NCBI GenBank assembly: GCA_022820825.1
Contig: JAJEEU010000017.1
Span: 17,292-81,291 of the forward strand
DNA: 64,000 nucleotides
Direction of reading: 5' to 3'
Source: Vicinamibacteria bacterium
GTDB lineage: Bacteria; Acidobacteriota; Vicinamibacteria; Vicinamibacterales; UBA8438
Shown here: positions 23,226-43,847 of the stretch, in pieces
Numbering within the stretch: the first letter of the stretch is position 1
How the letters are laid out: the number at the start of each line of letters is the position of its first letter
Translations under genes and position numbers: made by a program
Notes under the pieces: generated by a model
What the model was told of the DNA's origin: nothing
Seen by the model: the letters and a program-made list of their open reading frames with translations, nothing else
The model's database searches: none

Positions 23226-23227
23226 CC

Positions 23228-23983: not shown

Positions 23984-24059
23984 CACGGATGACGCGAACT
24001 GGACTCACTATTCGCCGGGCGCCCGGGTTCCGGTATGGGTTATCGTCTGAACACGAACC

Positions 24060-28070: not shown

Positions 28071-29507
28071 CTACCGCGCTCGCGCCGGCTCCAGCTTGCG
28101 GACCCAGCCGTCGCTCTTCGTCAGCAGGTAGAGCTCCCCGGCGGAGTCGATGCCCAGGCGTGCGTCCGCCCGGTCGCCGGGACCGTACGTGTTGGGGAAG
28201 CCGACCGCCTCGGCGAGGTCGCGCTCCTGGCCGTCGAGCACCAGCCGGAGCTCCCGGATCTCGGCGAGTTGGCCGGGCACGAGCGTGTCCGCGTCGATGT
28301 AGAACACGCGGCCGCGCGGGAAATCGGTGAAGACGTACTTGCCCTGCAGCTCTGGAATGGCCCGGCCCCGATAGACGAACCCGCCGCTGATAGCGTTGCC
28401 CTCGTCGTGGTCGTATTGCGCCACCGGATACACGAAGGGCTGCTCGTCCTGCGCCGGCGGCGGATACACCTGTCCCCGGCGACCGCCCTCGACCGCGAAA
28501 CCCGTGGCGAACGTGCCCTCCCGCAGCCGCCAGCCGTAGTTGGCGCCGGGCACCCCCAGATTGATCTCCTCGACCATGCCCTGGCCGATTTCACCCATGA
28601 ACATCCTGCCGTCCGTGTCCCAGGAGAACTGCTGCGCGTGCCGCAGGCCGTAGGCCCAGATCTCGGGAGCGACACCCGCATCGCCCACGAACGGGTTGTC
28701 CGCCGGAATGCCGTACCCCCTGCCGCCGTCGCCGCCCAGCGGGTCGATGCGGATGATCGCGCCGTGGGGCTCACTGAGGATTTGGCCGTAGTCGAGCGGA
28801 TCGTTGGCCGCCCCGCCGTCCCCGAGGCTGGCGTACAGGAGCCCGTATTCCGGCGATCCCTCCGCGGCCGTCGGATTGAACGCGATGACGCCGATGTTGT
28901 GGTTGGGGGCGAACTCGCCGATCCGGAACACCTCGCGCGACGTGCCCGTGAAGACGTTGGCCCGCGGATCGTCGGCCGTCCACTCCCGGATAACGCTCTC
29001 GTGGCTGCCCGCGTCGTCGTCCAGATAGTCGGCGCGCCCGCTGTCCGAGCGGGCGCTGTAGGCCGTATAGAGCTTCCCGAATCCCGGCGCGCCGGCCGAG
29101 GCGAACTGCGGGTGGAACGCGGCCGCCACCAGGCCGGCCTCGTTGACGAACATCGAGTCGTCGAAGCCGACGTCGCGGGTGCGGACGTCCAGGTACTCGA
29201 CCGGCTCCATCCCGTTCTCGTCGGTGATGTACAGCACGCCGCGCGTGTCATTGAGGACGAGGCGCCCCGAGCCGTCCCCGAGCGGCGTCAGGTACTGGAT
29301 GCGGGCATGCGACTCGGTCGTGATGACGTTCACCACCGAATCTTCCGTTCGCGGAGCGCGCACGAACGGTGTCGCTGCCACGACCAGGTCGCCCTTGAGG
29401 ATCGGTTCCGGAATGGGATCGGCGAGGGGCTCCACCTGTGCCGCGACCGGGAAGGCCGCGGCGGCGAAGATCGCGGCGGTCATACCGACCGCTAGAGTCA
29501 GGCGCAT
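28071..29507 (-). CDS. PQQ-dependent sugar (glucose/sorbosone) dehydrogenase-like beta-propeller, secreted
   Basis: Start at MRLTLAVGMTAAIFAAAAFPVAAQ (signal peptide). HNIGVIAFNP, GDGGAANDP, EIWAYGLRHAQQFSWD and NYGWRLREG match soluble GSDH-type motifs. Confidence 0.8.
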   Translation of the reverse strand: MRLTLAVGMTAAIFAAAAFPVAAQVEPLADPIPEPILKGDLVVAATPFVRAPRTEDSVVNVITTESHARIQYLTPLGDGSGRLVLNDTRGVLYITDENGMEPVEYLDVRTRDVGFDDSMFVNEAGLVAAAFHPQFASAGAPGFGKLYTAYSARSDSGRADYLDDDAGSHESVIREWTADDPRANVFTGTSREVFRIGEFAPNHNIGVIAFNPTAAEGSPEYGLLYASLGDGGAANDPLDYGQILSEPHGAIIRIDPLGGDGGRGYGIPADNPFVGDAGVAPEIWAYGLRHAQQFSWDTDGRMFMGEIGQGMVEEINLGVPGANYGWRLREGTFATGFAVEGGRRGQVYPPPAQDEQPFVYPVAQYDHDEGNAISGGFVYRGRAIPELQGKYVFTDFPRGRVFYIDADTLVPGQLAEIRELRLVLDGQERDLAEAVGFPNTYGPGDRADARLGIDSAGELYLLTKSDGWVRKLEPARAR

Positions 29508-29591
29508 AGTCCTTGCTCGCTTGGCTGCATCAGACAGTAGCAAGTCTCACCGAACGGTGCAGGCACATCACGCACGGTCGGTCCGGCGAAG

Positions 29592-32500: not shown

Positions 32501-33125
32501 CGTAGGCGAACAGCGGCTCGCGCGGGTCGCGGTCGTTCTTGTACTGCCGGATCGCGTCCTCCACGTCCTGCCCGTTGAGCGGGTTCTTCAACTCCGCCGT
32601 GAAGATGGGTATGCCGTTCAGGAACAACGCAAGGTCCAGGCTCTGCTCGTCCTTCTCGCTGAAGCGGAGCTGCCGCACGACTGCGAAGAGGTTGGCCGCG
32701 TGCAGGCGCTGCAGCTCCTCGTTGAGCCCGCTTGCCGGCCGGAAGTACGCCAGCCGGAACTTACAGCCCGAGTCCTTGACGCCGCTGCGCAGCACGTCCA
32801 GCGCCCCCCGCCGGGCGATCTCGCGCGACAGCCGGCCGAGGAAGCGTGGCTTCACGTCGGCGCCGTGGTGCTGCGTCAGCTTCTCCCAAACCTTCGGCTG
32901 CGTGGCTAGGAGGAAGTCGACGACGTCGGTCGGGATCAGACACAGCCCGCGGTCGTAGTCCTCGGGCCGTCGCCTGTGGTAGCCGCCGGGCAGAGGGTCG
33001 TCGCCGAACTCCGGCGCCGACTCCCGCACGGCCGCCGCGTCGCCCGGGCACGCATCCGGCCCGTAGCGCAACAGCGCGCACTCGATGGCCTCCTCGAACG
33101 CGCGCTCGGAGATGTCGGCAGTCAT
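29592..33125 (-). CDS. hsdR: type I restriction enzyme R subunit fused to a C-terminal AlbA_2/Schlafen-like domain
   Basis: Real part of track ORF 29592..33659, starting at MTADISERAFEEAIE (ATG 33125; 1177 aa). Nuclease motif DLALFLNGIPIFTAELK. Helicase motifs HSAGSGKS, VIVDEAHSSQ, FAFTATP and LVVANKFQTGFDQP. Extra about 160-aa tail ESKTLEFKSS...ALKTIAAFLNTEGGDLLIGVADD...GIEHD. Confidence 0.9.
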   Translation of the reverse strand: MTADISERAFEEAIECALLRYGPDACPGDAAAVRESAPEFGDDPLPGGYHRRRPEDYDRGLCLIPTDVVDFLLATQPKVWEKLTQHHGADVKPRFLGRLSREIARRGALDVLRSGVKDSGCKFRLAYFRPASGLNEELQRLHAANLFAVVRQLRFSEKDEQSLDLALFLNGIPIFTAELKNPLNGQDVEDAIRQYKNDRDPREPLFAYGRCLAHFAVDPELVFVTSLLAGPKTRFLPFNQGRFGGAGNPPVPPTRPGFATDYLWERVWARDSVLDLVRQFIHEVEAEDDRGRKTGARFLIFPRYQQLDCVRRLVGHARNHGPGERYLIQHSAGSGKSFTIAWLAHQLSVLHDSEDRRVFDSVVVVTDRRVLDRQLQRTIRQFEQTLGVVENIDQTSRQLREALETGRTIIVTTLQKFPVIAEQIGQLPGQRFAVIVDEAHSSQSGESTKSLKAVLKAESLEEAEQEEAGTETPEEEIEERIHEEIRSRGRLPNLSTFAFTATPKPKTLELFGTKRPDGKFEPFHRYSMRQAIEEGFILDVLGSYATYKAYWRLLKTIEDDPHYDKGKAEYLLKSFVELHPHAVREKVAICVEHFAAQAAGAIGGRAKAMIVTRSRLHAVRTKMVLDSYLAGKGHPWKALVAFSGTVKDGGESHTESGMNSAGQERVIGERQTAAEFEKPEYRFLVVANKFQTGFDQPLLHTMYVDKKLGGVNAVQTLSRLNRTHPGKEGTMVLDFANEADEIKKAFEPYYETTLLSEETDPNLLYEVQGRLLDFDVFTAADVGTVARLYFDPKATQDKLYAALEPARQRFVELDPDEGRDFRGQLGDYVRLYAFLSQVLTFADPDLEKLHVFARHLRRLLPVDREKLPREVQQNIDMESFRIQRTSRGRITLERQGQPLDPAGSKPRGGGEEELETLSRIIEALNERFGLDLGPEHRVTLEYIRSALDGDAGLDASARVNTRENVRLTFDPKVEDKIQEIVETNFDLYKRITDDPDFGRALKNYLFDDYIRRHRRAEELLKLQESKTLEFKSSVRWNLKEDRKDDRHVTHAALKTIAAFLNTEGGDLLIGVADDRKVLGIEHDRLESDDKFMRHLAQAVRNGLGDPAGTCIDPKTQIVDGKTVCLVSCQRSPEPVYLRWKGMEKAATGDLYVRTGPGTVRLGDDDARKYVASRFGLT

Positions 33126-33157
33126 GGGACGGGGAGGTGGTCGTGTCCGCCGACTGT

Positions 33158-33568
33158 TCAGCGCGGTTCCAGGACGGAGAGACCGAGGTCCCGGAAGTCC
33201 GAAGTGTTCAGCGTCGCCAGGGAATAGCCGCGGCTCCGGGCCGTGCCGGCGATCTGGGAATCGGCCAGGCTCATCGGCGCGCCCGCGCGCCGCCGCTTGG
33301 CGCGAAGCCTCGCGCTCTCGGCGGCGGCCTGCGCGTCGAACGGGACGACGCGCTCCGAGAACCCGTCGACGATCTTCAAGAACGCCTGGCCCAGGCGCGC
33401 CCGTTTCCGTCCGGGCGGAAGTATCTCTATTCCGAAGAGAATCTCGTCGACGGTGACGGCGGAGAGATACAGGACCGAAGGAGGGTGTCCGTCCAACCAG
33501 CGCATCACACGCCCGTCCGGTTCGACGCGCATGGCTTCCGACAGCACGTTGGTATCCAGCAGGATCAT
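33158..33568 (-). CDS. vapC: PIN-domain toxin VapC (FitB-like)
   Basis: 136 aa. MILLDTNVLSE...SAVTVDEILFG...LADSQIAGTA...LATLNTSDF (PIN acidic residues). 4-nt overlap with the upstream antitoxin gene. Confidence 0.9.
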   Translation of the reverse strand: MILLDTNVLSEAMRVEPDGRVMRWLDGHPPSVLYLSAVTVDEILFGIEILPPGRKRARLGQAFLKIVDGFSERVVPFDAQAAAESARLRAKRRRAGAPMSLADSQIAGTARSRGYSLATLNTSDFRDLGLSVLEPR

Positions 33569-33822
33569 TCGGGATCGTCCTGGCCGTATGCGCCTGACGC
33601 GAAGTCGATCGGATCGTCGACCTCGGGCGCCGGCAGGTCGAAATCGACCGCATCGTCACCGATGATGCGGCGGATCATCGCGCCGGCCGGCTCCACGTTG
33701 ACGACGGCGCCCGCCAGGATGCGACGCACGGTCTCTTCCACGGACAGGCCGTCGCGTTGCGCCCGGATCTTCAGCCGCCGAATGACCTCGTCATCCAGGC
33801 GGCGTACACTCAAGCTCGCCAT
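33565..33822 (-). CDS. vapB: FitA/Arc-type ribbon-helix-helix antitoxin VapB
   Basis: Start at MASLSVRRLDDEVIRRLKIRAQRDGLSVEETVRRIL (ATG 33822, GAGGAG upstream). Acidic toxin-binding tail. Confidence 0.8.
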   Translation of the reverse strand: MASLSVRRLDDEVIRRLKIRAQRDGLSVEETVRRILAGAVVNVEPAGAMIRRIIGDDAVDFDLPAPEVDDPIDFASGAYGQDDPE

Positions 33823-34264: not shown

Positions 34265-35605
34265 TCATCCCAGCACCGCCTCCCGCACGTCGATCTTGCC
34301 GGTGACCGCCGCGGAGATCAGGGCGGTGCGGAATTCCTTGAGGTGGTCGATGGCTTCGCGCACCTTCGCGATGAGGGCGTCGATCTTGCCCGTCTCGCGG
34401 TCGAGGAACGCCGCGATTGCGCTTTGTTCGGGGACTGGGGGCCAAGACACCACAACCGGATGAACGAGGTTGCGGTTGACTGTTGGGTTAGCGGAGCCGG
34501 TGTCAAAGCTCGCGAGGTCCATGCTCATGAGCTTGAAGTACACGTATCGCGGGTGATTTCCACAGAAATCTTTCACATACAGCGTTGTATCGTGCGGCCA
34601 GAAATCGACTGTGATGTAGTGAACCGCACCAGCAGTCCCCTTTCTCCCAACGACAACCCCAGGAGCCGCGGTGAGTGCCACGTCGTGAAAAGAAGATATC
34701 CCGCCCGACGAAACTACAGGAACTTCCCCCTCTTGTTGCTCGTCCTTCGTGATATCGACTCCACGTTGCAGGGTGATTTCTCTCCCGATACGAACGATTC
34801 TCCAATCCTGCGGCACAGCCCCGGGCCAATCGATGCCGGAGGGCTTGAGCTTGGGGTGCGGGGCCAGACCGGCCAGACGTGCGGCGTCGGGCGGGAGGCC
34901 CCGGGAGACGGCGCGGCTGATAAGCGCGGTGCGCTTCTCCCGAAGCAGCTCGATCAGCCGCTCCTTCCTCGCCACCAGCGCATCGATCTGCGCCGTCTCG
35001 CGGTCGAGGAAGTCGGCGATGGCATGTTGTTCGTCCGATGGAGCCATCGACATACGAATTGCCCCGAGGATGGAGCCGCTCAGATTCCCGAGTCCGGTTG
35101 TGGTTGAGGAGAGAAAAACAAGCTGTTGACGGGCAACTGGGGAGTTCATGAAGTACCAGAAGAACTGCGGCGCGTGTTTAGCCGAGACTCTCAGACGCTG
35201 CATGAAGTTGGAGAAGCAACAGTTCAGGTCTGCGATTACCTCGTCGACAATCGAAGTCTTGCCGATATGATGGGAACTTCCGCTCGACTTCGTCACGAGC
35301 AGATCTCCTGCGCCGAGGCGGGCGCAGGTCGCGTCGCGAGCATCGAGTCGCCTCCGGGCTGGCTCGTCAATCCGCCAGCCACCCTCCACCGTTTGCTCGG
35401 TGGACCGCAGGACGATGGTACCGTCGTCATCGAAGTCCTGTCCCCAAACGCCGCTGTCGTTGCGGACCAAACCCGCCTTGATCGGCTTAACCTCCCAGTG
35501 CGCCGGGATCTGACCTAGCCACTCGACGCCGGAGTCCATGTACTCTGGGTACGGCCGGAAGCGCTGCGGTCGCACGTCGCCGGTCCGATCGATCAACTCA
35601 GTCAC
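34265..35605 (-). CDS. hsdS: type I R-M specificity subunit HsdS
   Basis: 446 aa, GTG start with GGAGG 8 nt upstream. Two TRD halves, each followed by the conserved helix (EQHAIADFLDRETAQIDALVARKERLIELLREKRTALIS and EQSAIAAFLDRETGKIDALIAKVREAIDHLKEFRTALIS). Confidence 0.9.
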   Translation of the reverse strand: MTELIDRTGDVRPQRFRPYPEYMDSGVEWLGQIPAHWEVKPIKAGLVRNDSGVWGQDFDDDGTIVLRSTEQTVEGGWRIDEPARRRLDARDATCARLGAGDLLVTKSSGSSHHIGKTSIVDEVIADLNCCFSNFMQRLRVSAKHAPQFFWYFMNSPVARQQLVFLSSTTTGLGNLSGSILGAIRMSMAPSDEQHAIADFLDRETAQIDALVARKERLIELLREKRTALISRAVSRGLPPDAARLAGLAPHPKLKPSGIDWPGAVPQDWRIVRIGREITLQRGVDITKDEQQEGEVPVVSSGGISSFHDVALTAAPGVVVGRKGTAGAVHYITVDFWPHDTTLYVKDFCGNHPRYVYFKLMSMDLASFDTGSANPTVNRNLVHPVVVSWPPVPEQSAIAAFLDRETGKIDALIAKVREAIDHLKEFRTALISAAVTGKIDVREAVLG

Positions 35606-35928: not shown

Positions 35929-38265
35929 TCACTCGGGCCAGTGCTTCTGGCGGTAGTCGAGTAATGCCTGCCCTGAGAGTTCCTCGGTCGCGTTGTTGAG
36001 GCGTACAAAGAAGACCTCGCGCGGATCACCCTTTCTCGTTGCGAATACCGGCTCGACGACGGGACGAATATCTATCCGGGCGATCGTCTTGCCGTCAACC
36101 TTGCAGAAGTGCACGGAAAGATCCGTGGCGGCGACCGTGCCTAGGGCTTTCTTGACAACGGCCGTTAACCAGAGCTCCCAGCCGTCACGGTTGCCTCCCT
36201 TCACGAGTGGGTAGTCCTCCTCGATGCCGACTGGTTGGCCATCATCGCCGGCACCAATCAATAGCGTGCCGCCGTGGGTGTTCATGAAGGCCGCGATAGT
36301 CTTGATTACCGACCATGCGATCTCCGGATCCCGTGCCCGCGTATGCCGGTTGCGACTTGCCGTCGATTTGAATTCGACCACGGCGGATTCGCCGTCGTCG
36401 AGTAGTGAGCGTACGCTCTGTTCGATGTCCACATCCTGCGCGGCAAACGGACTCTCGTCACGCTCGGGTCGCCGGTTCACGGGCTTGCCCATGGCGCGTT
36501 CGGCATGTCGGAGCAGGCTCTCGAACCGCTGGTTGAAGAACTGCTCGAAGTTATCCCGGCGTAGTGCCGAGGGATCGATGTCGTGGGAGCGCAGGAAACC
36601 GTCGAGTACGTGTGGTTCGATACCATCGCCCGACTCGATCCGTGGGAGATAGATACTGGGCGCGTTGCCGCCGATGCGGCGGTTCGTGTGCGCGTCAAGT
36701 GCAGTCTTGTTCACAATGCAGTCGGCGATCTTCCAATCGATTCTGCGTTCGGGATCGTCGCACCAGTGCCGCGGAAAAATGTGATGGATGTCGATGGCAT
36801 CCTCCATGTACGCGTGGATGTCGATCGGCTGGCCAGTCTTGAAGTCGCGGGCGCCCTGCTTCATCTGGAGCGCGTACAACCCCTTGTAGGCGGCGCTGTT
36901 GCGCGTGCGCAGCGTGAGCAGCCGTTCGGCCTGGAACTGTGCCGCCTGCACCGTACGCGGCGCTACGTTGTCGGCACGATCCTCGATCCAAGCAATGCAA
37001 TCCTCCAGATCGTTGGCGAACCGCGTTTCCGCCGCGCCGCCGTACATCTCGCCGAGGACGCCGCACCAGAACCACTGCCCGAGCCGCTGGCGCGACGCGT
37101 ACGATTCCGCCAGATCTTCCATCCATCCGAAGATGGCCCCGAGAGGCACCAACTGGGTCGCGTACGGCAGCTCCCGGTAGCGGAAGATATGGTGGTTGTG
37201 CAGGAACGGTACCGCGCGCAACAGGCCGCGCTCGGCGACGTCCGCCCATTCCTTGTAGTCGTCGAGCTGTAGTCGCAGCACCTCGCGGCGCTTGCACGAA
37301 ACAGCGGGCGCCTTGTCGTCCTGTGGATGTACCCGCAGGTGTGATCGGCGCCGGTCATAGGTGGCGAGTAGCGTAACGATTTGCAGGAACGCAGTTGCGT
37401 CTACTCCGGCCAGAAGCTCATGTTGTGCGAGTCGCTCGTGCCGCTCGTCCCAGTCCTTGCGCAACTCGAAGTCGCCAGCCGCGTACGTCGCGGTCAAGAG
37501 TTCGAAGACCGTCAGCGTGACGCCGCCCGTGTTGACCTTCTCGAACACTTGGCAGACGGCCTCCTTGGGCGTCGACTTCGCCAAATCGATCGTCGGCACC
37601 TGGTACTGTTCAAACGGAACAATGATTGCGTCCTCAAATTGTTCCCACTTGGTCCAACGATCAGACTGGTTTCCCTGTCCCGAGCGCAGGTATGCTCTCT
37701 CCCAGGCCCTTCTATCGCTGGAGTCGAGAATGATGTCCAGCGGAAACATCTCTGCCGCGATTTCTCGGTCGCGGCTGCTCACGTCCAGGTCGATCACGCG
37801 GCCGAAGTCGCTTCGCACGATGCGATCTGCGGGGACGCCGACGATACCCATTTCTTCGCGGTCTATAGACGGATCTATGCAAGCGCGGATACTGGCGTAG
37901 TAGTGACGGTGCAACTCGTTGCCGCGGCGGTCCCGCGTGCAAACTGGGTCGCGGGACTTCAGGGCCTGAAAGAGCGACGTCAATCGCTGCTGTCCGTCGA
38001 GCAGGAGAAGGTCGGGCTCCGGTGCGGCTGCCAACCTCACGCCTTCCAGTAGGCGAGCCTTAAAGTTGACGTCGGGGTTGCCGGCAACGAGCGTCATGAC
38101 CGCGCCGATCGGATACGAAAGCGAAATCGATGCCAGCAGACTGCGGATGTGGTCGTCGTCCCACACCCAGCCGCGCTGGAAATCTGGTAGTTGTAACTCG
38201 CCGCGCGCGGCTTGATCGAGTAGTTGCGCCAGTGGCAATTCGTCGCTGCTGAATTTCTTCTCCAC
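35929..38265 (-). CDS. GmrSD-like type IV restriction enzyme (DUF262 + DUF1524-type His-Me nuclease) fused to a C-terminal AlbA_2/Schlafen-like domain
   Basis: 778 aa, GTG start with GAGGAG upstream. LQLPDFQRGWVWDDDHI and LLLLDGQQRLTSL (DUF262/ParB-like). IDIHHIFPRHWC...NKTALDAHTNRRIGGNAPS (DUF1524-like). Tail GESAVVEFKST...VIKTIAAFMNTHGGTLLIGAGDD...GIEED. Confidence 0.85.
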   Translation of the reverse strand: MEKKFSSDELPLAQLLDQAARGELQLPDFQRGWVWDDDHIRSLLASISLSYPIGAVMTLVAGNPDVNFKARLLEGVRLAAAPEPDLLLLDGQQRLTSLFQALKSRDPVCTRDRRGNELHRHYYASIRACIDPSIDREEMGIVGVPADRIVRSDFGRVIDLDVSSRDREIAAEMFPLDIILDSSDRRAWERAYLRSGQGNQSDRWTKWEQFEDAIIVPFEQYQVPTIDLAKSTPKEAVCQVFEKVNTGGVTLTVFELLTATYAAGDFELRKDWDERHERLAQHELLAGVDATAFLQIVTLLATYDRRRSHLRVHPQDDKAPAVSCKRREVLRLQLDDYKEWADVAERGLLRAVPFLHNHHIFRYRELPYATQLVPLGAIFGWMEDLAESYASRQRLGQWFWCGVLGEMYGGAAETRFANDLEDCIAWIEDRADNVAPRTVQAAQFQAERLLTLRTRNSAAYKGLYALQMKQGARDFKTGQPIDIHAYMEDAIDIHHIFPRHWCDDPERRIDWKIADCIVNKTALDAHTNRRIGGNAPSIYLPRIESGDGIEPHVLDGFLRSHDIDPSALRRDNFEQFFNQRFESLLRHAERAMGKPVNRRPERDESPFAAQDVDIEQSVRSLLDDGESAVVEFKSTASRNRHTRARDPEIAWSVIKTIAAFMNTHGGTLLIGAGDDGQPVGIEEDYPLVKGGNRDGWELWLTAVVKKALGTVAATDLSVHFCKVDGKTIARIDIRPVVEPVFATRKGDPREVFFVRLNNATEELSGQALLDYRQKHWPE

Positions 38266-38494: not shown

Positions 38495-38752
38495 TCAGCG
38501 ATCTTCCGCACCACGGCGCAGAACTCGCACGCGCAGCAGGTGCCACTGCAATAACGCTCGCGTGTCACGCCGTCCGTCCGCGATCACAAGAAAGTAGACG
38601 CCGTCTCCCATGACGCGGTAGGTGATCCGGTACGGCTTGAAGAATGCCTCCCGGTACTCCGGAATGCCGAGCTCCAGCAATTCTCTCGGGTGGCTGCCGC
38701 GTTCGGAGAACGCGGACAACGCGTGGACGGCTTGCTCGATCCGCTCCAGCAC
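38495..38752 (-). CDS. ParE/RelE-family toxin, apparently N-terminally truncated
   Basis: ERGSHPRELLELGIPEYREAFFKPYRITYRVMGDGVYFLVIADGRRD is a ParE-like core. The only start is GTG 38752. The frame continues upstream as RHHDLEATIDYPSAKAQH to an in-frame TGA at 38807-38809, which is also the antitoxin stop. Confidence 0.65.
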   Translation of the reverse strand: MLERIEQAVHALSAFSERGSHPRELLELGIPEYREAFFKPYRITYRVMGDGVYFLVIADGRRDTRALLQWHLLRVRVLRRGAEDR

Positions 38753-38806
38753 GTGCTGCGCCTTGGCGGAGGGGTAGTCGATGGTCGCTTCGAGGTCGTG
38801 GTGGCG

Positions 38807-39007
38807 TCATCGGTCAACTAGGCCGCGAAGGGCGTTCAGTCGGCCCTGTCGCCGGTCTCGAAGCTGCGCCACGACCTCGACGGCGGGCCGCACCTGGCCG
38901 GCTTCGATCTGACGCTTGCCCAGCGCCAACATCTTGAGCAGAGCCGCGCTCTCCTGCATCCGCTCGAAGCCTTCGGTGCCGGGCTGTGCGGGGCTGTGGC
39001 GCGCCAT
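38807..39007 (-). CDS. short ParD-like antitoxin
   Basis: 66 aa. AALLKMLALGKRQIEAGQVRPAVEVVAQLRDR resembles the C-terminal half of ParE-cognate antitoxins. Its ATG overlaps the hsdM stop (TGATG). Confidence 0.55.
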   Translation of the reverse strand: MARHSPAQPGTEGFERMQESAALLKMLALGKRQIEAGQVRPAVEVVAQLRDRRQGRLNALRGLVDR

Positions 39008-41118
39008 CAGCCCGACATCTCCTGCAGCATGTCCACTATCTCCTTCTCGACTCGCTGGATGTCGGCCTCGATCTCCTCCAGCGGGCGGGGCGGGCGGTAT
39101 TCGTAGAAGTGGCGGTTGAAGTTGATTTCGTAGCCGACGAGTCCGACCTCTCCGTCTTGCGGATCCCGGCGGTTCGTATCGATCCAGGCGTCGGGTACGT
39201 GGGGCTTGACCTCGCGCTCGAAGAATGACTCGACGGCGTCGCTGAGGGGCATGTTCTCCGTGTCTCGCAGCTCGGGGTCGGGTTCGGGGCGGCCATCCCG
39301 GTCGCGGCAGATCTCCGCTTTTGGGTTGCGTTCGGCCAGCGCGGAGAGAATGGCCTTCCGGATGGGCGCGGCAAGTTTGAGATCCGTCTCTCGAGCCGCG
39401 TCCGACAGTTTGGCCTCGAATAGAGCTCGGTCGAGGAAGAGGTCGTCCGGCAGGCTCCGCAGCAGGGCTCGGAGCGCTGCCTGTTGCTTGCGCCCGGCCT
39501 CTTCGTCCCTGGCCTTGGTAGCGCCCTTCTTGCGCGACACGGCCAGGTTGGCGAAGGCGCGCTGGTCGTCGAGCCGTGCGATCCGCTCGGGACTGGCCTG
39601 GAAGTCGAGCCTGAGAGGGCGTTCGACGGTGATCTTGCGGAAGCCGAAGTGCGTGGTCGGGTAGACGCGGCTGACGACGGCCTCGTGCTCTTCGCCGTCT
39701 TGGTCGACCGTGCGCGTCGCGCCGTCCTGGAAGTCAGCGAGTAGTCGTAGAACCTCCTGCTTCCGGCCGAAAGGGACCTCGCGACGCTTGGCGCCCAGGC
39801 TCTTGCGCAGCAGGGTCCAGAATGAACTGGCATTGATGAGTTGAACCTTGCCGCGGCGCTGGGGCCGCTTGCGGTTCGTGAGCACCCAGACGTAGGTGGC
39901 GATGCCGGTGTTGTAGAAGAGCTGCTCGGGCAGGGCGATCAGCGCCTCGAGCAGGTCGTTCTCGAGGATCCAGCGGCGGATCTCGCTCTCGCCGCTCCCG
40001 GCGTCGCCGGTGAAAAGGGGCGAGCCGTTCATGATGATGGCGACCCGCGAGCCGCCCTGGGTGGATTCCTTGACGTGCGCGAGCATGTGCTGCAGGAACA
40101 GGAGTTGGCCGTCACTGATGCGCGGCAGGCCCGGCCCGAAGCGCCCGGCAGCGCCCCGGTCGTGCTCGTCGCGCACCGCGTCCTGGTCACGCTTCCAGTC
40201 CTTGCCGTAAGGCGGATTGGCGATCATGTAGTCGAAGGAGCCGGCGGCGTGCCGGTCGTTCGAGAGCGTGCTCCCGAAGACGACGTTCTCCGCGTCGCGG
40301 CCGTCCTGCGACTTCATGAAGAGGTCCGACTTGCAGATGGCGAACGTCTCCGGGTTCACCTCCTGGCCGAACAGGTGGATGTCGGCGTCGGGGTTCACCG
40401 GGTCGCCGAGGTGTTTGCTGTCGCGTATCTCCCCGACCGTGATGTGCTCCTTGGCGATGGTGAGCATGCCTCCAGAGCCGCAGCACGGGTCGTAGACGCT
40501 CAGGACAACCCCTTTCGTCTGCAGGCGCTGTTCATCGCCGGCCAGCAGTAGGTCGAACATCAGGTGCACGACGTCGCGGGGGGTGAAGTGCTCGCCGGGG
40601 TTCTCGTTCAGCGCCTCGTTGAACTTCCGGATGAGCTCCTCAAAGATCGTGCCCATCACGGCGTTGTCGACCGCGTCCGGGTGCAGGTTCACCTGCGGAT
40701 CGCCGAATCGCTGCACGACCTGGAACAGGAGCCCGGCCTCGTCGAGCTTCGAGATGGTGTTGTCGAAGTCGAACTTCTCCAGCACCTCCCGCATGTTGGG
40801 GCTGAACCCGGCGATGTAGTTGCGCAGGTTCTGTGCGATGTGTGGCGCGTCGGCGAGCAACTTCTCGAAGTCGTAGCGCGACGTGTTGTAGAAGGCGAAT
40901 CCGGAAGCGCGCTGGAGCAAACCGTCGAGGTTATCGAGCTTGCCCTTGTACCTCGCCTGGACCTCCATCACCTTCGGCTTGGTGGGGGCCAGCACGCAGT
41001 CAAGCCGGCGCAGCACCGTGAGTGGCAGGATCACGTCTTGGTACTTGCTGCGCTTGAACGTGTCGCGGATCAGGTCCGCCACGCCCCAGATGAAGTTGAC
41101 GATCTGGCTGTGATTCAT
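39007..41118 (-). CDS. hsdM: type I R-M N6-adenine DNA methyltransferase HsdM
   Basis: 703 aa. IVNFIWGVADLIRDTFKRSKYQDVILPLTVLRRLD N-domain, VYDPCCGSGGML (motif I) and DYMIANPPYGKDW (motif IV). Confidence 0.95.
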   Translation of the reverse strand: MNHSQIVNFIWGVADLIRDTFKRSKYQDVILPLTVLRRLDCVLAPTKPKVMEVQARYKGKLDNLDGLLQRASGFAFYNTSRYDFEKLLADAPHIAQNLRNYIAGFSPNMREVLEKFDFDNTISKLDEAGLLFQVVQRFGDPQVNLHPDAVDNAVMGTIFEELIRKFNEALNENPGEHFTPRDVVHLMFDLLLAGDEQRLQTKGVVLSVYDPCCGSGGMLTIAKEHITVGEIRDSKHLGDPVNPDADIHLFGQEVNPETFAICKSDLFMKSQDGRDAENVVFGSTLSNDRHAAGSFDYMIANPPYGKDWKRDQDAVRDEHDRGAAGRFGPGLPRISDGQLLFLQHMLAHVKESTQGGSRVAIIMNGSPLFTGDAGSGESEIRRWILENDLLEALIALPEQLFYNTGIATYVWVLTNRKRPQRRGKVQLINASSFWTLLRKSLGAKRREVPFGRKQEVLRLLADFQDGATRTVDQDGEEHEAVVSRVYPTTHFGFRKITVERPLRLDFQASPERIARLDDQRAFANLAVSRKKGATKARDEEAGRKQQAALRALLRSLPDDLFLDRALFEAKLSDAARETDLKLAAPIRKAILSALAERNPKAEICRDRDGRPEPDPELRDTENMPLSDAVESFFEREVKPHVPDAWIDTNRRDPQDGEVGLVGYEINFNRHFYEYRPPRPLEEIEADIQRVEKEIVDMLQEMSG

Positions 41119-41502
41119 GTCGGGTCCGGTACGAACCTAACACCCTATCCGTCTTTGCCCAGCCAGTCCAACCACAGCGAACCGCTGCAGAACACCGCGA
41201 ATGGCGCCGACGAACGCACGAACTCCACCGGTGGACGCACGACGACGGAGCCTGGATGCCGTCTGGACGCAAGGACAGCAAGGCCCAGCGGGCCATGTAC
41301 GCGCGGCCTCAACGTCAACGCGTTGGCCGTGGTGAAGCCATGCTGTTCAGCCGCCACTGACTACGCCGCACGGCTGGCGTTGGCTAGGTGACTGTGTCCG
41401 CCAACGGCAAAGTACCCATTCACATCGCTTCACCAAGTCGATGCGGATCTCAAGTCATGTATTATTGACGGCATGCTTTTTTTACTGGGCATGGAGGTTT
41501 AG

Positions 41503-42795
41503 TTGTCAGCACATACAGAATTTCACTCTACGACCTTGAGCGATGCGGACATCTTGGTCGCCGTCAAGAAAATAGCCTCTGAATTGGAGCAGGTTCCAGA
41601 GCAATGCCGCGTCGACGTAGAAATCATGGAGCGATACACCGGGAATCCGGAGGGGCTCTCACTGTCTCAGATCACGAGTCAACCATTCGCGCGACATGCG
41701 GAGGAGCACGGCGGCGCATCATGGAAGCGCGTCTTGATTGAGTTCCAACCTTTGACGCTGCGCCTGAACGTGCAACGCGACCGAGAACGAGGTGATGACG
41801 CAATCCACGTATCGTTTCGGGAGGATCCTTCGGATCCCGTTGATGTGGTCCGTTCACTCAACGCCATTCAACAGCATTTTATTCCGTTGAACCGAGCGGA
41901 AGCAATAGAGCGTGCGCTTGGGCCGGAAATGGCTGAGTTCTATCGCCTGCGCGAAGATGGCCTGTCGCGCCTGGAAGCATTGACGCGAAGGCTCGTAGGC
42001 GAGACGCACGAGTACCGATTGCGACTCGATACGGAGGTGGCCGAACACAAGCAGGCGTTGAGTGTGTCATTTGACGAAAAGAATGAGGAGTTGGAAAAGA
42101 CACATGAAGAGCGAGCCGCCGCCTTGGAAGCACGCGAACGAGAGTTGGATGAGCGACGCCGTGAACTTGACGACCGTAGCGCGCGGCATGCTCGGCGGGA
42201 GCAAAGTAGAGCCCTGCAACAGAAGATCTCGGATCGCTCGGAGAAATTCACACTAACGCCCGAAACACAGCGTAAGCGGCGGCCAATACACCTGATATTC
42301 GCGGGTCTTCTTCTTGTTTCAGCAGGGTTGGTCGCTCGTTCATTGTTTATTCCGGTAGCGGCAACTGAAGGTGTGGCGTCGTGGTTGGAGCTAGTACGGT
42401 TGCCGCTGGGCGTGTTGGGATTCGCCCTTACTGCTGTGTTCTATATTCGATGGAACGATCAGTGGTTTCGGCAGCATGCGGACCAGGAGTTCCGGCTTCA
42501 ACAACTCGCCCTCGATGTTGATCGAGCTGGTTACGCCACAGAGATGTTGCTGGAGTGGCAGGAGGACAAAAGTGGCGAGATGCCCGCGGTTATGGTTGAT
42601 CGCCTCACGACCGGTCTGTTCACGGATCAGACGAAGATGGCGAGCGTGCGACATCCGTCGGAGGATGTCGCAGCGGCGTTACTGAAGGCGTCGTCAAGTG
42701 TACGGGTGGACATACCTGATATCGGAGAGGTTACGTTGACCGGGCGGAATATTCGCAAGCTAGACCGGAACTTGGCGAAAAAGCGCGAGCCGTAA
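41503..42795 (+). CDS. orphan coiled-coil / two-TM membrane protein, unknown function
   Basis: 430 aa, TTG start with GGAGG 5 nt upstream. Soluble N-domain (aa 1-135), charged coiled coil (about aa 140-245: EKNEELEKTHEERAAALEARERELDERRRELDDRSARHARRE), TM helices at about aa 262-285 and 293-316, and a 110-aa C-terminal tail. AT-richer than its surroundings. Confidence 0.7.
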   Translation: MSAHTEFHSTTLSDADILVAVKKIASELEQVPEQCRVDVEIMERYTGNPEGLSLSQITSQPFARHAEEHGGASWKRVLIEFQPLTLRLNVQRDRERGDDAIHVSFREDPSDPVDVVRSLNAIQQHFIPLNRAEAIERALGPEMAEFYRLREDGLSRLEALTRRLVGETHEYRLRLDTEVAEHKQALSVSFDEKNEELEKTHEERAAALEARERELDERRRELDDRSARHARREQSRALQQKISDRSEKFTLTPETQRKRRPIHLIFAGLLLVSAGLVARSLFIPVAATEGVASWLELVRLPLGVLGFALTAVFYIRWNDQWFRQHADQEFRLQQLALDVDRAGYATEMLLEWQEDKSGEMPAVMVDRLTTGLFTDQTKMASVRHPSEDVAAALLKASSSVRVDIPDIGEVTLTGRNIRKLDRNLAKKREP

Positions 42796-42901: not shown

Positions 42902-43288
42902 ATGAGGAAACGTCAGATCAAGGCGCTGTCGGTCAGGCAGCCCTGGGCGAACCTGATCGCATCGCGAAAGAAGACCATCGAGGTACGCGAGTGGCGCACA
43001 AAACACAGGGGGCCACTGCTGATCTGCGCATCGAAACGGCCGCCGGTGCCGCCTTGCGGGTGCATGGTCGCACTCGCAGACCTGGTCGAGTGTCGGCTAC
43101 TTGTTCCGGCGGACGAGCGCGCAGCGCAGATGAAGCGCGACCCCAAGGGGCCACCGCAAGTGGCGTGGGTGCTGAAGAACATCAGGCGCGTGCCCAACCA
43201 TCCGGTCACGGGTAGGCCCGGGCTCTTCGACTGTGACCTGCCGCCGGACGTCAGGAAGTTGCTCGACGGCCGGAGCCGGAAGAAATAG
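42902..43288 (+). CDS. ASCH (PUA-like) domain protein
   Basis: 128 aa. IKALSVRQPWANLIASRKKTIEVREWRTKHRGPLLICAS is the ASCH N-terminal signature. Confidence 0.8.
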   Translation: MRKRQIKALSVRQPWANLIASRKKTIEVREWRTKHRGPLLICASKRPPVPPCGCMVALADLVECRLLVPADERAAQMKRDPKGPPQVAWVLKNIRRVPNHPVTGRPGLFDCDLPPDVRKLLDGRSRKK

Positions 43289-43332: not shown

Positions 43333-43824
43333 TCAGCCGCCCGGCTCGTCGGCCTGCTGGCCGGCGTGGAACTCCGAGTAGACGTACACCGGGATCTTGA
43401 GGGCGCCGAGGCGGTCCTCGACCACGGGACGCACGTCGGCCCACTTCAGGCCGCCCACGCCGGTGGCGAGCCGGGGCAGGGCGAGCGAGCTAAAGCCCTC
43501 TTGTTCGACGATGCGCACGAGGGCGCGCAAGCTGTCGCGGACGTGCTTGAGCGTGGCGCGCCCCGGGCGGGCGCCGTGGCCGTAGCCGCCTTCCTGGGTG
43601 ATGAGGTTGATCACCCGCACGCCGCCCGGGCCGCCCCACATCCAGGCTTCGCCCGGCTTGGGGTGCGCCTGGTTGCACCAGTGGTGGTAGTCCTTGTGCA
43701 TCGCCGGGTACTTCTCGTGCAGCGAGCGCGCCAGCCCCTGGTTCATGGGATCCTTGGGCGCGACGCCGTGCGCCACGGCCTGCGCGCCGCTGAGGAGGAT
43801 GTCTCCCGATACGTAGTGGATCAC
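43333..43824 (-). CDS. stand-alone macro domain protein (TARG1/DarG-like)
   Basis: Real part of track ORF 43333..44190. GTG start 43824 with GGAAGGAG upstream. YVSGDILLSGAQAVAHGV...INLITQ...SSLALPRLATGVGGLKW matches the macrodomain ADP-ribose pocket pattern. Confidence 0.8.
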   Translation of the reverse strand: MIHYVSGDILLSGAQAVAHGVAPKDPMNQGLARSLHEKYPAMHKDYHHWCNQAHPKPGEAWMWGGPGGVRVINLITQEGGYGHGARPGRATLKHVRDSLRALVRIVEQEGFSSLALPRLATGVGGLKWADVRPVVEDRLGALKIPVYVYSEFHAGQQADEPGG

Positions 43825-43847
43825 GAGTCTGGCTCCTTCCGTGCGGG

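What the first reader, a model, noticed from the sequence alone, without database searches (positions are those of the whole stretch)
41503..42795. Orphan 430-aa coiled-coil / two-TM protein divergent from hsdM: candidate single-gene membrane effector
Seen in sequence:
- A clean ORF (TTG start, GGAGG 5 nt upstream) lies in the most AT-rich stretch of the window (30/60 G+C at 41521-41580).
- It is transcribed divergently from hsdM across a 384-bp spacer.
- Architecture by eye: a soluble N-domain (aa 1-135); a long charged heptad-like region (aa 140-245: EKNEELEKTHEERAAALEARERELDERRRELDDRSARH); two hydrophobic helices (aa 262-285 IHLIFAGLLLVSAGLVARSLFIPV and aa 293-316 SWLELVRLPLGVLGFALTAVFYIR); and an amphipathic 110-aa tail.
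- I recognise no family.

Inference: its position at the edge of an R-M/TA island, its foreign composition and its sensor-coiled-coil-2TM layout fit an abortive-infection-type membrane-disrupting effector. The 2-TM plus helical tail is reminiscent of SLATT-like effectors, but that is a guess. The downstream ASCH gene (106-nt gap, same strand) could be a partner.
Basis: partly seen in the sequence, partly recalled or inferred. Interest (0 to 1): 0.7.

Follow-up and report, generated by a model that had tools for sequence, protein, structure and literature searches.

The report
Unnamed membrane-hairpin protein of defence islands
This gene is not an orphan but belongs to a large, unnamed, horizontally mobile family of membrane-anchored proteins that often lie beside restriction-modification, BREX and Abi genes or inside mobile elements, which makes it a credible but untested candidate for a new single-gene anti-phage effector.

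Summary

**Family.** It is not an orphan. An exhaustive search finds 983 clusters (50% identity) with E <= 1e-10, nearly all about 425 aa. The architecture is fixed:
- a fast-evolving N-terminal alpha/beta domain;
- a 108-residue charged helix;
- a TM hairpin;
- a very conserved cytoplasmic C-module.

No Pfam, NCBIfam, PADLOC, PHROG, PDB or viral-structure match is significant. Weak hits (LeoBC, ZorA, LmuB) fall only in the charged helix.

**Genomic context.** Of 17 independent contexts:
- 6 put it within three genes of R-M, BREX or Abi systems;
- 9 put it among transposases, recombinases, plasmids or toxin-antitoxin genes;
- 2 are housekeeping.

No partner gene recurs. ASCH accompanies it only in one syntenic relative. 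No copy was found in phage collections.

**Other features.**
- A TTG start behind a strong GGAGG site is conserved across phyla.
- Its GC3 (0.60) is far below its neighbours' (0.73-0.97).

**Verdict.**
- Defence-island and mobile-element association: supported.
- SLATT kinship: not supported.
- ASCH partnership: not supported.
- Abortive-infection pore mechanism: plausible inference only.
- Novelty: a new, uncharacterised family of a known general kind.

The parts
41493..41497 (+). Shine-Dalgarno GGAGG, 5 nt upstream of the TTG start. GGAG and TTG are the only invariant upstream and start positions across 12 loci from different genomes.
41503..42795 (+). CDS of the 430-aa protein (TTG start, stop included). 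Member of an unnamed family of about 425-aa proteins.
41503..41907 (+). N-terminal cytoplasmic alpha/beta domain (aa 1-135). It is the least conserved part and evolves fastest (omega 0.27-0.52). Its length is constant (median 131 aa) and it forms a single homology group across the family. Proposed specificity or sensor domain (inference).
41923..42246 (+). Long continuous charged helix (aa 141-248, about 160 A if straight, 48% charged). The conserved LGPE-AEFY-R-RE-L-RLE motif lies at its start. All weak PADLOC hits (LeoBC, ZorA, LmuB, LeoA) map here and reflect composition only.
42166..42279 (+). Conserved basic pre-TM1 segment (aa 222-259: LDDRsaRHARR ... F-LT--T--KR). R231, R232, T255 and R259 are invariant in 107 diverse members.
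42286..42357 (+). TM1 (aa 262-285), strongly hydrophobic across the family (19-residue mean hydropathy up to 2.1).
42379..42450 (+). TM2 (aa 293-316), only moderately hydrophobic (up to 1.67), with near-invariant R299/P301/G303 in the close subfamily. It follows a short variable outside loop (aa 286-292), which is about 50 aa longer in a Photobacterium homologue.
42451..42570 (+). Juxtamembrane helix continuing from TM2 (aa 317-356), the most conserved part of the family: (FYIR)WNDqWFrqHAdEEFRL--L-LD-DRA-W--EM-LEW. W317, W321, E329, R341 and E347 are invariant. H325, D338, D340, E351 and W352 are conserved in at least 94% of members.
42571..42792 (+). C-terminal cytoplasmic subdomain (aa 357-430): short helices, an HP-ED motif (H384, P385), a beta hairpin (aa 401-411) and a terminal helix. 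In the trimmed model the 10-residue blocks run at pLDDT 94-95 for aa 356-375 and 58-77 from aa 376 on.

Best explanation
**What it is (shown).** The gene encodes one member of a widespread, uncurated protein family that moves between genomes by horizontal transfer. The architecture is fixed:
- a cytoplasmic, fast-diverging N-terminal alpha/beta domain;
- a helix of about 108 residues, very rich in charged residues;
- a two-helix membrane hairpin with a minimal outside loop;
- a highly conserved cytoplasmic module made of the segments that flank the hairpin plus a small C-terminal subdomain.

The gene travels alone, essentially as the ORF with its own strong SD and a weak TTG start. It lands preferentially in defence islands and mobile elements. 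In this window it sits at the edge of a type I R-M / GmrSD / ParDE island next to the suf operon.

**How it most likely works (inferred, not shown).** It is a self-contained, single-protein anti-phage or anti-MGE effector held at low copy by the TTG start.
1. The N-domain, the part that diversifies, recognises an intracellular cue of infection.
2. The signal passes along the rigid helix, probably in a dimer or higher oligomer.
3. The conserved juxtamembrane bundle responds. The basic pre-TM1 helix may pack against the acidic post-TM2 helix.
4. That change rearranges or oligomerises the marginally hydrophobic hairpin.
5. The inner membrane becomes leaky or depolarised, which stops phage replication (abortive infection or dormancy).
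For: **Family and architecture**
- 148 close homologues at 50-87% identity.
- 1237, 983 and 394 clusters at E <= 1e-3, 1e-10 and 1e-30, nearly all 400-470 aa.
- The N-domain has a constant length, and 237 of 239 copies fall in one BLAST component.
- TM segments and flanking charges are conserved family-wide.
- The trimmed C-module model is confident: pLDDT 85, pTM 0.63.
- Purifying selection acts everywhere, with the N-domain evolving 2-4 times faster.

**Mobility**
- 60-72% identity between Acidobacteriota, Latescibacterota, Gammaproteobacteria and Rhodospirillales MAGs.
- Gene GC is below flank GC in all 16 loci examined. GC3 is 0.60 against 0.73-0.97 for neighbours.
- Truncated copies occur, one (L006) between repeated transposase-like ORFs.

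**Context**
- Adjacent to hsdM in the window and in L014.
- Directly after BREX brxL.
- Directly after a type ISP R-M gene.
- Between a XamI R-M system and an MTase/IIG-like gene.
- On a Tn7-like element beside a GIY-YIG nuclease, a restriction endonuclease and an AAA+UvrD pair.
- On a plasmid with Fic, Abi and AIPR genes.
- Nine further contexts are rich in IS elements, recombinases, plasmid genes or toxin-antitoxin genes.
- 6 of 17 contexts with a canonical defence system within three genes has a binomial P of 1e-4 to 5e-3 if the background rate is 5-10%. That background is my own rough estimate.

**Stand-alone gene, tight expression**
- No recurrent neighbour was found.
- A TTG start behind GGAGG is kept in 12 of 15 close loci and in one distant locus. 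This fits tight, low expression of a potentially toxic protein.
- No copies were found in phage collections. This fits a host-side role, not a phage-borne one.
Against: - There is no functional data of any kind.
- There is no homology to any validated defence protein. PADLOC hits are coiled-coil noise.
- Two of 17 contexts are housekeeping. In one lineage (L004/L008/L010) the gene looks vertically inherited among ordinary genes.
The background rate was not measured.
- Many contexts show mobile-element or toxin-antitoxin genes but no defence genes, which fits any accessory cargo function equally well.
- The oligomeric state, pore formation and sensor role of the N-domain are pure inference.
- The monomer models cannot show a channel.
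- The invariant His/Asp/Glu/Arg residues of the C-module could instead mark an enzymatic or binding site.
Confidence: 0.45

Rival explanations
1. It is generic mobile-element cargo with a conflict function other than phage defence. Possibilities include exclusion of incoming plasmids, ICEs or phage DNA at the inner membrane, inter-MGE competition, or a regulator or anchor for neighbouring R-M or BREX machinery.
For: - Nine of 17 contexts show only IS elements, recombinases, plasmid genes or toxin-antitoxin genes, with no canonical defence genes.
- The gene sits on a conjugative plasmid and inside a Tn7-like element.
- It repeatedly lies at the very edge of R-M or BREX operons.
Against: - It never sits inside conjugation or transfer operons, where entry-exclusion genes normally lie (all context calls).
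- The type of adjacent R-M or BREX system and the gene's orientation relative to it both vary, so a dedicated accessory role for one system is unlikely.
- It is absent from phage and prophage collections, where superinfection-exclusion genes are typical.
Confidence: 0.2
2. It is an accessory membrane-structural or stress protein, not a conflict gene. It could be a scaffold or membrane-remodelling or repair factor, in the manner of PspA/Vipp1, BAR-like or dynamin-stalk proteins, that merely accumulates in variable regions.
For: - The best, non-significant fold neighbours of the C-module are helical membrane-shaping or membrane-associated proteins: Vipp1, BAR domains, eisosome Pil1/Lsp1, ExbB.
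- Two housekeeping contexts exist, and the gene looks vertically inherited in one lineage.
- The charged helix resembles apolipoprotein-like and dynamin-stalk composition.
Against: - None of those matches is significant (best E 0.6).
- The distribution is patchy, with high identity across phyla.
- Its composition is foreign, and IS, R-M or BREX neighbours are frequent, which argues against a core physiological role.
- The conserved weak start codon suggests that its level must be kept low.
Confidence: 0.15
3. It is the effector half of a two-gene system with the downstream ASCH gene.
For: ASCH lies 106 nt downstream on the same strand in the window. It occupies the same place in the 87%-identical orthologous locus L014.
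Against: - L014 is simply syntenic (hsdM - gene - ASCH - suf), so it counts as one observation.
- In none of the other 16 independent contexts is an ASCH gene adjacent.
- All-against-all comparison of flanking ORFs found no shared downstream gene.
Confidence: 0.04
4. It is a SLATT-like or CBASS/Pycsar-type 2-TM effector, opened by a nucleotide second messenger made elsewhere.
For: It has two TM helices followed by cytoplasmic helices. A viral SLATT-domain protein appears in the BFVD list.
Against: - That match has E 0.31, TM-score 0.19 and rmsd 24 A.
- No SLATT family appeared for the query at E <= 1, nor among the 25 families listed for 107 members.
- A PADLOC '2TM effector' model hit 1 of 107 members, at E 1.6e-3.
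- No cyclase, SMODS or TIR gene was seen in any neighbourhood.
- The family has its own N-terminal domain, which would make a separate sensor unnecessary.
Confidence: 0.04

Closest known systems
Single-protein or effector-type membrane Abi modules (RexB, CBASS/Pycsar 2TM-4TM effectors such as Cap15, retron-associated 2TM proteins, SLATT)
   Same: - A small inner-membrane anchor with the bulk of the protein in the cytoplasm.
- Residence in defence islands.
- The expected outcome is membrane permeabilisation. Both the comparison and the proposed mechanism are inferred from my knowledge of these systems.
   Different: - No sequence or fold similarity was detectable.
- No partner sensor or cyclase gene was found.
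- It carries its own N-terminal domain and a 108-residue helix.
- The conserved core is the cytoplasmic juxtamembrane bundle, not the TM helices or a beta-barrel.
CorA-type funnel channels, including CorA effectors of type III CRISPR systems
   Same: The order of parts is the same: a cytoplasmic alpha/beta N-domain, a very long stalk helix running into TM1, a short outside loop, then TM2. The comparison rests on my knowledge of CorA structures.
   Different: - No CorA family appeared in the Pfam results.
- The outside loop is variable and lacks a conserved GMN-like motif.
- There are 110 conserved residues after TM2, whereas CorA ends almost at TM2.
Coiled-coil-bearing defence proteins (ZorA tail, LeoA/LeoBC dynamin-like stalks, LmuB/JetC SMC arms)
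   Same: Weak HMM hits to these PADLOC models occur in 8-33 of 107 members. All of them possess long charged helices.
   Different: - The hits are confined to aa 127-267 of the consensus sequence, with one member hit reaching aa 298. That is the charged helix, and the E-values are 1e-4 or worse.
- No MotA-like, GTPase or ATPase domain is present.
- The resemblance is compositional, not homology.
Pfam DUF2207_C (predicted membrane protein, C-terminal domain)
   Same: 21 of 107 members give sub-threshold hits covering the end of the helix plus the TM hairpin.
   Different: - The best score is 23.6 bits against a gathering threshold of 33.
- The hit does not extend into the family-defining post-TM2 module.
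- DUF2207 proteins have a large extracytoplasmic N-domain (my knowledge).

Membership tests
SLATT (SMODS and SLOG-associating 2TM effector) | Significant match to a SLATT profile (Pfam SLATT_1-6 and related) | tested here: not met
   No SLATT family appeared for the query at E <= 1, nor among the 25 families listed for 107 members at E <= 0.01.
SLATT (SMODS and SLOG-associating 2TM effector) | Genomic linkage to a nucleotide-signal generator or sensor (SMODS, SLOG, TIR, cyclase) | tested here: not met
   None was seen in 17 independent neighbourhoods.
SLATT (SMODS and SLOG-associating 2TM effector) | Two TM helices followed by a cytoplasmic helical extension | tested here: met
   This topology is too simple to be diagnostic. 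The fold match to a viral SLATT protein has E 0.31 and rmsd 24 A.
Known or candidate defence proteins in PADLOC-DB v2 | Significant HMM match outside low-complexity or coiled-coil regions | tested here: not met
   The query has no hit below E 0.06. Member and consensus hits map to the charged helix only. PDC-S06 is called an AAA ATPase, and its gene in S. thermophilus spans about 2.2 kb.
CorA metal-ion transporter / CRISPR-associated CorA | CorA profile match and a conserved GMN-type motif in the loop between TM1 and TM2 | tested here: not met
   No CorA family appeared in the Pfam results. The loop at aa 286-292 is the least conserved block of the protein (information 0.8 bits).
Bacterial dynamin-like (LeoA/LeoBC, Eleos) | Dynamin GTPase domain | tested here: not met
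   LeoBC, LeoA and LeoC hits cover aa 136-267 of the consensus sequence and up to aa 306 in members, that is, the helix and in places the start of the hairpin. No dynamin or GTPase family appeared in the Pfam results.
Zorya ZorA | MotA/ExbB-like multi-TM domain | tested here: not met
   The hits align with ZorA profile positions 274-582, which I take to be its coiled-coil tail. Only two TM segments are present.
Type II toxin-antitoxin toxin | Conserved adjacent cognate antitoxin gene | tested here: not met
   No recurrent neighbouring ORF was found. The ParDE pair in the window is a separate, complete module at 38495-39007.
Phage or prophage superinfection-exclusion proteins | Encoded in phage or prophage genomes | tested here: not met
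   No relative was found in IMG/VR contigs or in 50,697 phage records, using the query or the family consensus.
The unnamed family itself (about 425 aa; N-domain, charged helix, TM hairpin, WND-WF...HA-EEFRL...LD-DRA-W--EM-LEW module) | Full-length collinear homology including the invariant residues R231, R232, T255, R259, W317, W321, E329, R341, E347, F373 | tested here: met
   Alignments A1 and A2. hhalign probability is 99.9% even to the most divergent plasmid member.

The most novel reading that the evidence does not exclude
The family is a previously unrecognised, phylum-spanning, single-gene anti-phage immunity protein with a new fold. A fast-evolving cytoplasmic N-domain would sense infection, and a 16-nm helix would couple it to a novel juxtamembrane bundle and hairpin that opens the inner membrane. 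That would make it a self-contained sensor-transducer-pore, unrelated to SLATT, CorA, gasdermin or any known effector.
Probability: 0.35. Interest if true: 0.65.

Novelty: new variant of a known kind. Interest (0 to 1): 0.5.

Why it matters
- **Scope.** If the inference holds, several hundred to about a thousand sequence clusters would receive a function. They come mostly from uncultured Acidobacteriota, Latescibacterota, Proteobacteria and marine bacteria, and are annotated today only as 'hypothetical protein'.
- **A compact new effector.** It would add a one-gene module to the catalogue of membrane-targeting immune effectors. The confident model of its conserved core has no structural neighbour in the PDB.
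- **Direct experiments.** The fixed architecture, with a diversifying N-domain and an almost invariant membrane-proximal module, suggests domain swaps, point mutants of ten invariant residues and phage escaper screens.
- **An annotation fix.** The conserved TTG start is a practical warning. Gene callers truncated several family members (388 aa and 380 aa instead of about 430 aa), which may be one reason the family has escaped curation.
- **If it is not a defence gene.** It would still be a useful marker of variable, horizontally acquired regions.

Tried and rejected
1. **Curated libraries.** Pfam, NCBIfam, PADLOC and PHROGs on the query gave only coiled-coil noise. Pfam, PADLOC and NCBIfam on 107 diverse members gave nothing above threshold.
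2. **LeoBC, ZorA, LmuB and DUF2207_C leads.** I mapped the matched regions using the family consensus and 9 members. All lie in the charged helix or helix plus hairpin, and all are sub-threshold. Rejected as compositional.
3. **PDC-S06 lead.** The literature calls it an AAA ATPase, and its S. thermophilus gene spans about 2.2 kb. Rejected.
4. **8xMP lead.** Three of 107 members hit it weakly. I found no literature on it and could not evaluate it.
5. **Structure.**
   - Full-length AF2 model against PDB: best E 0.02, TM < 0.2.
   - Trimmed C-module model (pLDDT 85) against PDB: best E 0.6.
   - Full model against BFVD: best E 9.5e-3, TM < 0.2.
   - PDB sequence-profile searches with A1, A3 and the N-domain found nothing.
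6. **Partner gene.** All-against-all comparison of flanking ORFs across 21 loci found only recombinases and transposases recurring. ASCH was rejected as a partner.
7. **Modular sensor swapping.** Rejected. The N-domain is one homologous domain of constant length.
8. **Regulatory RNA or shared promoter.**
   - Rfam found nothing.
   - No sigma-70-like promoter was found, and terminator-like sites are not above the shuffled expectation.
   - Upstream conservation across loci stops about 35 nt before the start.
   - No tRNA gene lies in the window, so there is no tRNA integration site.
9. **Phage or plasmid origin.**
   - No hit in IMG/VR or the INPHARED phage records.
   - Three of 72,556 plasmids carry distant members.
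   - The JGI metagenome contig scan added two short loci.
10. **Literature.** Searches by accession and by keywords did not find a named system. The two recent discovery papers examined could not be linked to this family without sequences.
Full report
**1. The observation**

The ORF listing and the raw sequence confirm a 430-codon ORF at 41503-42795 on the plus strand. It starts with TTG, and GGAGG lies at 41493-41497, five bases upstream. Its neighbours are:
- hsdM at 39007-41118 on the minus strand, so the divergent spacer is 384 bp;
- an ASCH-domain gene at 42902-43288 on the same strand (Pfam E 1.1e-8).

The lowest-GC 1.3-kb stretch of the whole 64-kb window is 41.3-42.8 kb, at 0.554-0.560 against 0.681 overall. 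Third-position GC is 0.603 for this gene. It is 0.885 for hsdM, 0.814 for ASCH, 0.754 for GmrSD and 0.965/0.949 for sufB/sufC. The gene is therefore compositionally foreign even within its island.

**2. The surrounding island**

The minus-strand genes upstream form one long array:
- HsdR fused to a Schlafen/AlbA_2 domain (29592-33659);
- HsdS (34265-35605);
- a GmrSD-type enzyme also fused to AlbA_2 (35929-38265);
- a ParE toxin (38495-38752) with a small upstream ORF (38807-39007);
- HsdM.

Downstream of the gene lie ASCH and a stand-alone macrodomain (43333-43830). The macrodomain matches the PADLOC DarG model at 2.7e-24 over the macro part only. The sufBCD operon follows from 44564.

**3. 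Not an orphan**

- The word-indexed search returned 148 proteins at 50-87% identity, almost all 420-430 aa and full length.
- The exhaustive HMMER search of 1.84 billion cluster representatives returned 1237 clusters with E <= 1e-3, 983 with E <= 1e-10 and 394 with E <= 1e-30. The listed ones are nearly all 400-470 aa.
- None carries a precomputed Pfam domain. The only source names are 'hypothetical protein'.
- Hosts named in records include Acidobacteriota (Vicinamibacteria, Terriglobia, Bryobacterales), Latescibacterota, Gammaproteobacteria and Rhodospirillales MAGs.
- Distant members occur on plasmids of Pseudomonas coronafaciens, Pseudoalteromonas shioyasakiensis and Photobacterium.
- Identities of 60-72% across phyla, together with a gene GC below the flanks in all 16 loci examined, indicate repeated horizontal transfer.
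- Only 8 loci of the close subfamily were found among 185,579 species genomes, so the distribution is patchy.

**4. Anatomy**

I made two alignments: A1 (45 close members) and A2 (107 members at 24-62% identity to the query). They show a fixed architecture.

| Region | Residues | Main findings |
|---|---|---|
| N-domain | 1-135 | Least conserved (about 1.1-1.7 bits per column). AF2 predicts a beta-alpha-beta, three-strand, helix unit at pLDDT 85-92. Median length 131 aa (IQR 127-134). 237 of 239 copies fall in one BLAST component. |
| Charged helix | 141-248 | One helix at pLDDT about 95, 48% charged, about 160 A if straight. Hydrophobic periodicity peaks at 3.6-3.67 rather than 3.5. L208, L215 and L222 are nearly invariant in A1. 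|
| Pre-TM1 segment | about 222-259 | Strongly conserved basic segment (LDDR-S-HARR ... F-LT--T--KR) |
| TM1 | 262-285 | Family mean hydropathy peaks at 2.1 |
| Outside loop | 286-292 | Short and variable |
| TM2 | 293-316 | Family mean hydropathy peaks at 1.67, with conserved Arg/Pro/Gly |
| Juxtamembrane helix | 317-356 | The most conserved stretch, 2.6-3.6 bits per column |
| C-terminal subdomain | 357-430 | Short helices, HP-ED motif, beta hairpin, terminal helix |

Further points:
- Because the N-domain has one length and one homology group, it is a single diverging domain, not a set of swapped modules.
- Residues invariant in all 107 sequences are R231, R232, T255, R259, W317, W321, E329, R341, E347 and F373.
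- Positive charge on both cytoplasmic flanks implies an N-in/C-in hairpin, with essentially nothing exposed outside.
- In the full-length model the C-terminal part was poor. A dedicated prediction of aa 216-430 with a 49-sequence trimmed alignment gave pLDDT 85.2 and pTM 0.63, with blocks at 90-97 through the hairpin and juxtamembrane helices.
- Nei-Gojobori estimates for five orthologue pairs give omega of 0.27-0.52 for the N-domain, 0.08-0.15 for the helix and 0.07-0.21 for the TM+C module. All parts are constrained, and the N-domain evolves two to four times faster.

**5. Comparison with everything known**

*Profile libraries*
- For the query, Pfam, NCBIfam, PADLOC and PHROGs give only marginal coiled-coil hits.
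- Scanning all 107 members individually gave these hits:

| Library | Family | Members hit (of 107) | Best E-value |
|---|---|---|---|
| Pfam | DUF2207_C | 21 | 1.3e-4 (below threshold) |
| PADLOC | LeoBC | 33 | 1e-6 |
| PADLOC | LeoA | 12 | 8.7e-6 |
| PADLOC | ZorA models | up to 12 | 1.1e-5 |
| PADLOC | LmuB | 8 | 1.5e-5 |
| NCBIfam | TrlF_fam_ATP (the most frequent of five weak families) | 5 | 1.2e-4 |

- Mapping with the family consensus and nine members shows where these hits fall. For the consensus sequence the PADLOC hits lie in aa 109-267, which is the end of the N-domain plus the charged helix; in two individual members they run on to aa 298-306. DUF2207_C covers the helix plus hairpin, at 23.6 bits against a threshold of 33.
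- They are compositional. None touches the family-defining module after TM2.
- PDC-S06, which a few members hit, is an unrelated AAA ATPase.

*Structure*
- Foldseek found nothing significant for the full model against the PDB (best E 0.02, TM < 0.2, driven by the N-domain).
- The confident C-module model against the PDB gave a best E of 0.6, with generic long helical hairpins: Tc toxins, chemoreceptors, BAR domains, Vipp1, ExbB.
- The full model against BFVD gave a best E of 9.5e-3. A SLATT protein appears only at E 0.31 and rmsd 24 A.
- PDB sequence-profile searches were negative.
- AFDB was not available.

**6. Genomic neighbourhoods**

I collected 26 loci and collapsed syntenic ones, which leaves 17 independent contexts.

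*A canonical defence system within three genes (6 contexts)*

| Context | Neighbours |
|---|---|
| Window and L014 | Type I R-M. The surrounding island differs between the two: GmrSD and ParDE here, AbiEi/AbiEii, AAA_13 and PDDEXK_4 there |
| L015 | 283 nt after brxL of a BREX system |
| L024 | 98 nt after a 1124-aa type ISP R-M gene, with Mrr 9 kb away |
| L026 | XamI R-M upstream and an MTase/type IIG-like 933-aa gene directly downstream |
| L018 | Tn7-like cargo: GIY-YIG nuclease, restriction endonuclease, AAA ATPase + UvrD helicase |
| L019 | Plasmid with Fic, Abi-family, AIPR and DUF6035 genes |

*Hallmarks of mobile elements, toxin-antitoxin modules or variable regions only (9 contexts)*
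- L016: IS elements and DUF6602.
- L009: serine recombinases and HNH.
- L011: T5orf172, transposase, PIN.
- L017: conjugative plasmid, RelE/ParE.
- L020: integrative element with recombinases, DUF5906 and ParE.
- L021: HipA and FRG, with an ion-channel gene 17 nt upstream.
- L025: LexA-like gene, M78 peptidase and DUF4411.
- L003 and L005: transposases.
- Sources.

*Housekeeping (2 contexts)*
- The syntenic trio L004/L008/L010.
- L023, downstream of rpsO-pnp.

*Interpretation*
- An all-against-all comparison of flanking ORFs found no recurrent neighbour except recombinases and transposases.
- ASCH accompanies the gene only in the window and L014.
- With an assumed background of 5-10% for a canonical defence system that close, 6 of 17 has a binomial tail of 1e-4 to 5e-3. 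The background is my rough estimate from published defence-system densities, not measured here.
The enrichment is suggestive, not a formal score.
- No family member was detected in IMG/VR or in 50,697 phage records.

**7. A conserved weak start**

- In 12 of 15 close loci where the start can be read, the gene begins with TTG, five bases after GGAG(G/A)T. These are the window, L003, L004, L009, L010, L011, L014, L015, L016, L023, L024 and L026.
- Two loci (L002, L005) use ATG and one (L025) is ambiguous.
- One 39%-identical member (L021) also uses TTG. Four more distant members use ATG or GTG.
- Gene callers missed the TTG in L014 and L026 and reported 388- and 380-aa products.
- Upstream similarity across loci ends about 35 nt before the start. 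The transferred unit is essentially the ORF with its ribosome-binding site.
- These loci share ancestry, so the counts are not independent. Even so, TTG is retained at 60-70% protein identity, where synonymous sites are largely saturated (dS about 1 or more in most region comparisons). That suggests selection for a strong SD with a weak start. Such a design fits tightly limited synthesis of a potentially harmful protein (inference).

**8. Mechanism**

*Shown*
- The protein is a membrane-anchored, cytoplasm-facing protein of fixed architecture.
- It stands alone.
- It is horizontally mobile.
- It is enriched next to defence systems and in mobile DNA.
- It has a diversifying N-domain and a nearly invariant membrane-proximal module.

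*Inferred*
- It is a single-protein immune effector. The N-domain detects an intracellular sign of infection, and the helix (probably in an oligomer) transmits the change.
- The basic pre-TM1 helix and the acidic post-TM2 helix form a latch. Releasing the latch lets the marginally hydrophobic hairpin reorganise into a leak or pore, which aborts infection.
- I give this 0.45.

*Rivals*

| Rival | Confidence |
|---|---|
| Another conflict or cargo function at the membrane (exclusion, inter-MGE competition, accessory to R-M/BREX) | 0.2 |
| A non-conflict membrane scaffold or stress protein | 0.15 |
| A two-gene system with ASCH | 0.04 |
| A SLATT-like, nucleotide-gated effector | 0.04 |

The invariant His/Asp/Glu/Arg set in the C-module leaves open an enzymatic or ligand-binding role that I could not test.

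**9. Novelty and verdict**

The family is absent from Pfam (2025 copy), NCBIfam 20, PADLOC-DB 2, PHROGs 4 and the PDB. I found no paper naming it. The general idea of a membrane effector in a defence island is well known, so I rate it a new variant of a known kind.

|---|---|
| Sequence observation | Confirmed |
| Defence-island and membrane-effector reading | Partly supported by neighbourhood evidence |
| SLATT kinship | Not supported |
| ASCH partnership | Not supported |
| 'Orphan' | Wrong at the family level |

Interest is 0.5. The case rests on a solid, testable candidate family with an unmatched conserved core and a striking conserved TTG start. It also rests on guilt by association alone, in a field where many such candidates exist.

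Noticed in passing
window 29592-33659 (-) and 35929-38265 (-): Two different restriction-type proteins in one island both carry a C-terminal Schlafen/AlbA_2 domain. One is HsdR (HSDR_N, ResIII/SWI2_SNF2, T1R_D3, then AlbA_2 at aa 1202-1338). The other is a GmrSD-type enzyme (GmrSD_N, then AlbA_2 at aa 626-763). The GmrSD gene and a ParDE pair are inserted between hsdS and hsdM of the type I operon.
   Followed up: partly
window 43333-43830 (-): A stand-alone macrodomain protein matches the PADLOC DarG model (E 2.7e-24), but only over the macro part (profile positions 2-148 of 329), and no DarT-like neighbour was noted. In the syntenic locus L014 this slot holds a DUF1232 gene instead, so the position is variable.
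   Followed up: partly
window 42902-43288 (+): The ASCH-domain gene downstream matches phage family phrog_3193 (E 5.4e-28), over positions 84-212 of a 269-position profile. Related domains therefore occur in larger phage proteins.
   Followed up: no
window 22365-25010 (+): A second lower-GC patch (0.59-0.63) holds an unannotated 286-aa ORF, a DUF5131 protein (E 3e-98; I recall this family as phage Gp37/Gp68-like) and an HNH_2 endonuclease. This may be a separate small foreign insertion.
   Followed up: no
window 26895-27698 (-) and 28071-29543 (-): A weak, partial AbiEii-like match (E 1.2e-6, about 36 residues) lies next to a glucose/sorbosone dehydrogenase gene. In L014 the GSDH gene is flanked by a complete AbiEi / AAA_13 / AbiEii set. 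The window may therefore hold a remnant of that module.
   Followed up: no
L014:9878, L026:9878 (true starts); proteins P0002, P0076 and other 380-390-aa entries: Gene callers missed the conserved TTG start and annotated products about 40 aa too short. Several 'short' family members in public collections are probably artefacts of this kind.
   Followed up: yes
L026:18740-19474 (-) and L021:1359-2066 (+): Small ion-channel-type genes (Ion_trans/Ion_trans_2) occur near two family members. One is fused to a Schlafen/AlbA_2 domain (L026). The other ends 17 nt upstream of the family gene on the same strand (L021, and the near-identical L022).
   Followed up: no
L016:9498-9875 (+) and L017:1-117 (-): DUF6602 genes appear near the family gene in two unrelated contexts. 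One lies immediately upstream in an IS-rich chromosomal region. The other lies about 9 kb away on a Pseudomonas conjugative plasmid.
   Followed up: no
L006:10001-10381 and L007:328-735: Only the last ~130 codons of the family gene are present. In L006 the fragment lies between repeated ORFs that cluster with an rve-type integrase gene of L016. These look like decayed copies.
   Followed up: partly
L010:13696-17952 (-): In the otherwise housekeeping context of L010, a 1418-aa protein without Pfam domains matches the PADLOC model HEAT-ARM_XIII (E 2.4e-100, nine stretches). This may only reflect HEAT repeats.
   Followed up: no
L019:8020-9423 (+): The Photobacterium plasmid member has about 50 extra residues between TM1 and TM2. 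The outside loop of the family is therefore not always minimal.
   Followed up: partly
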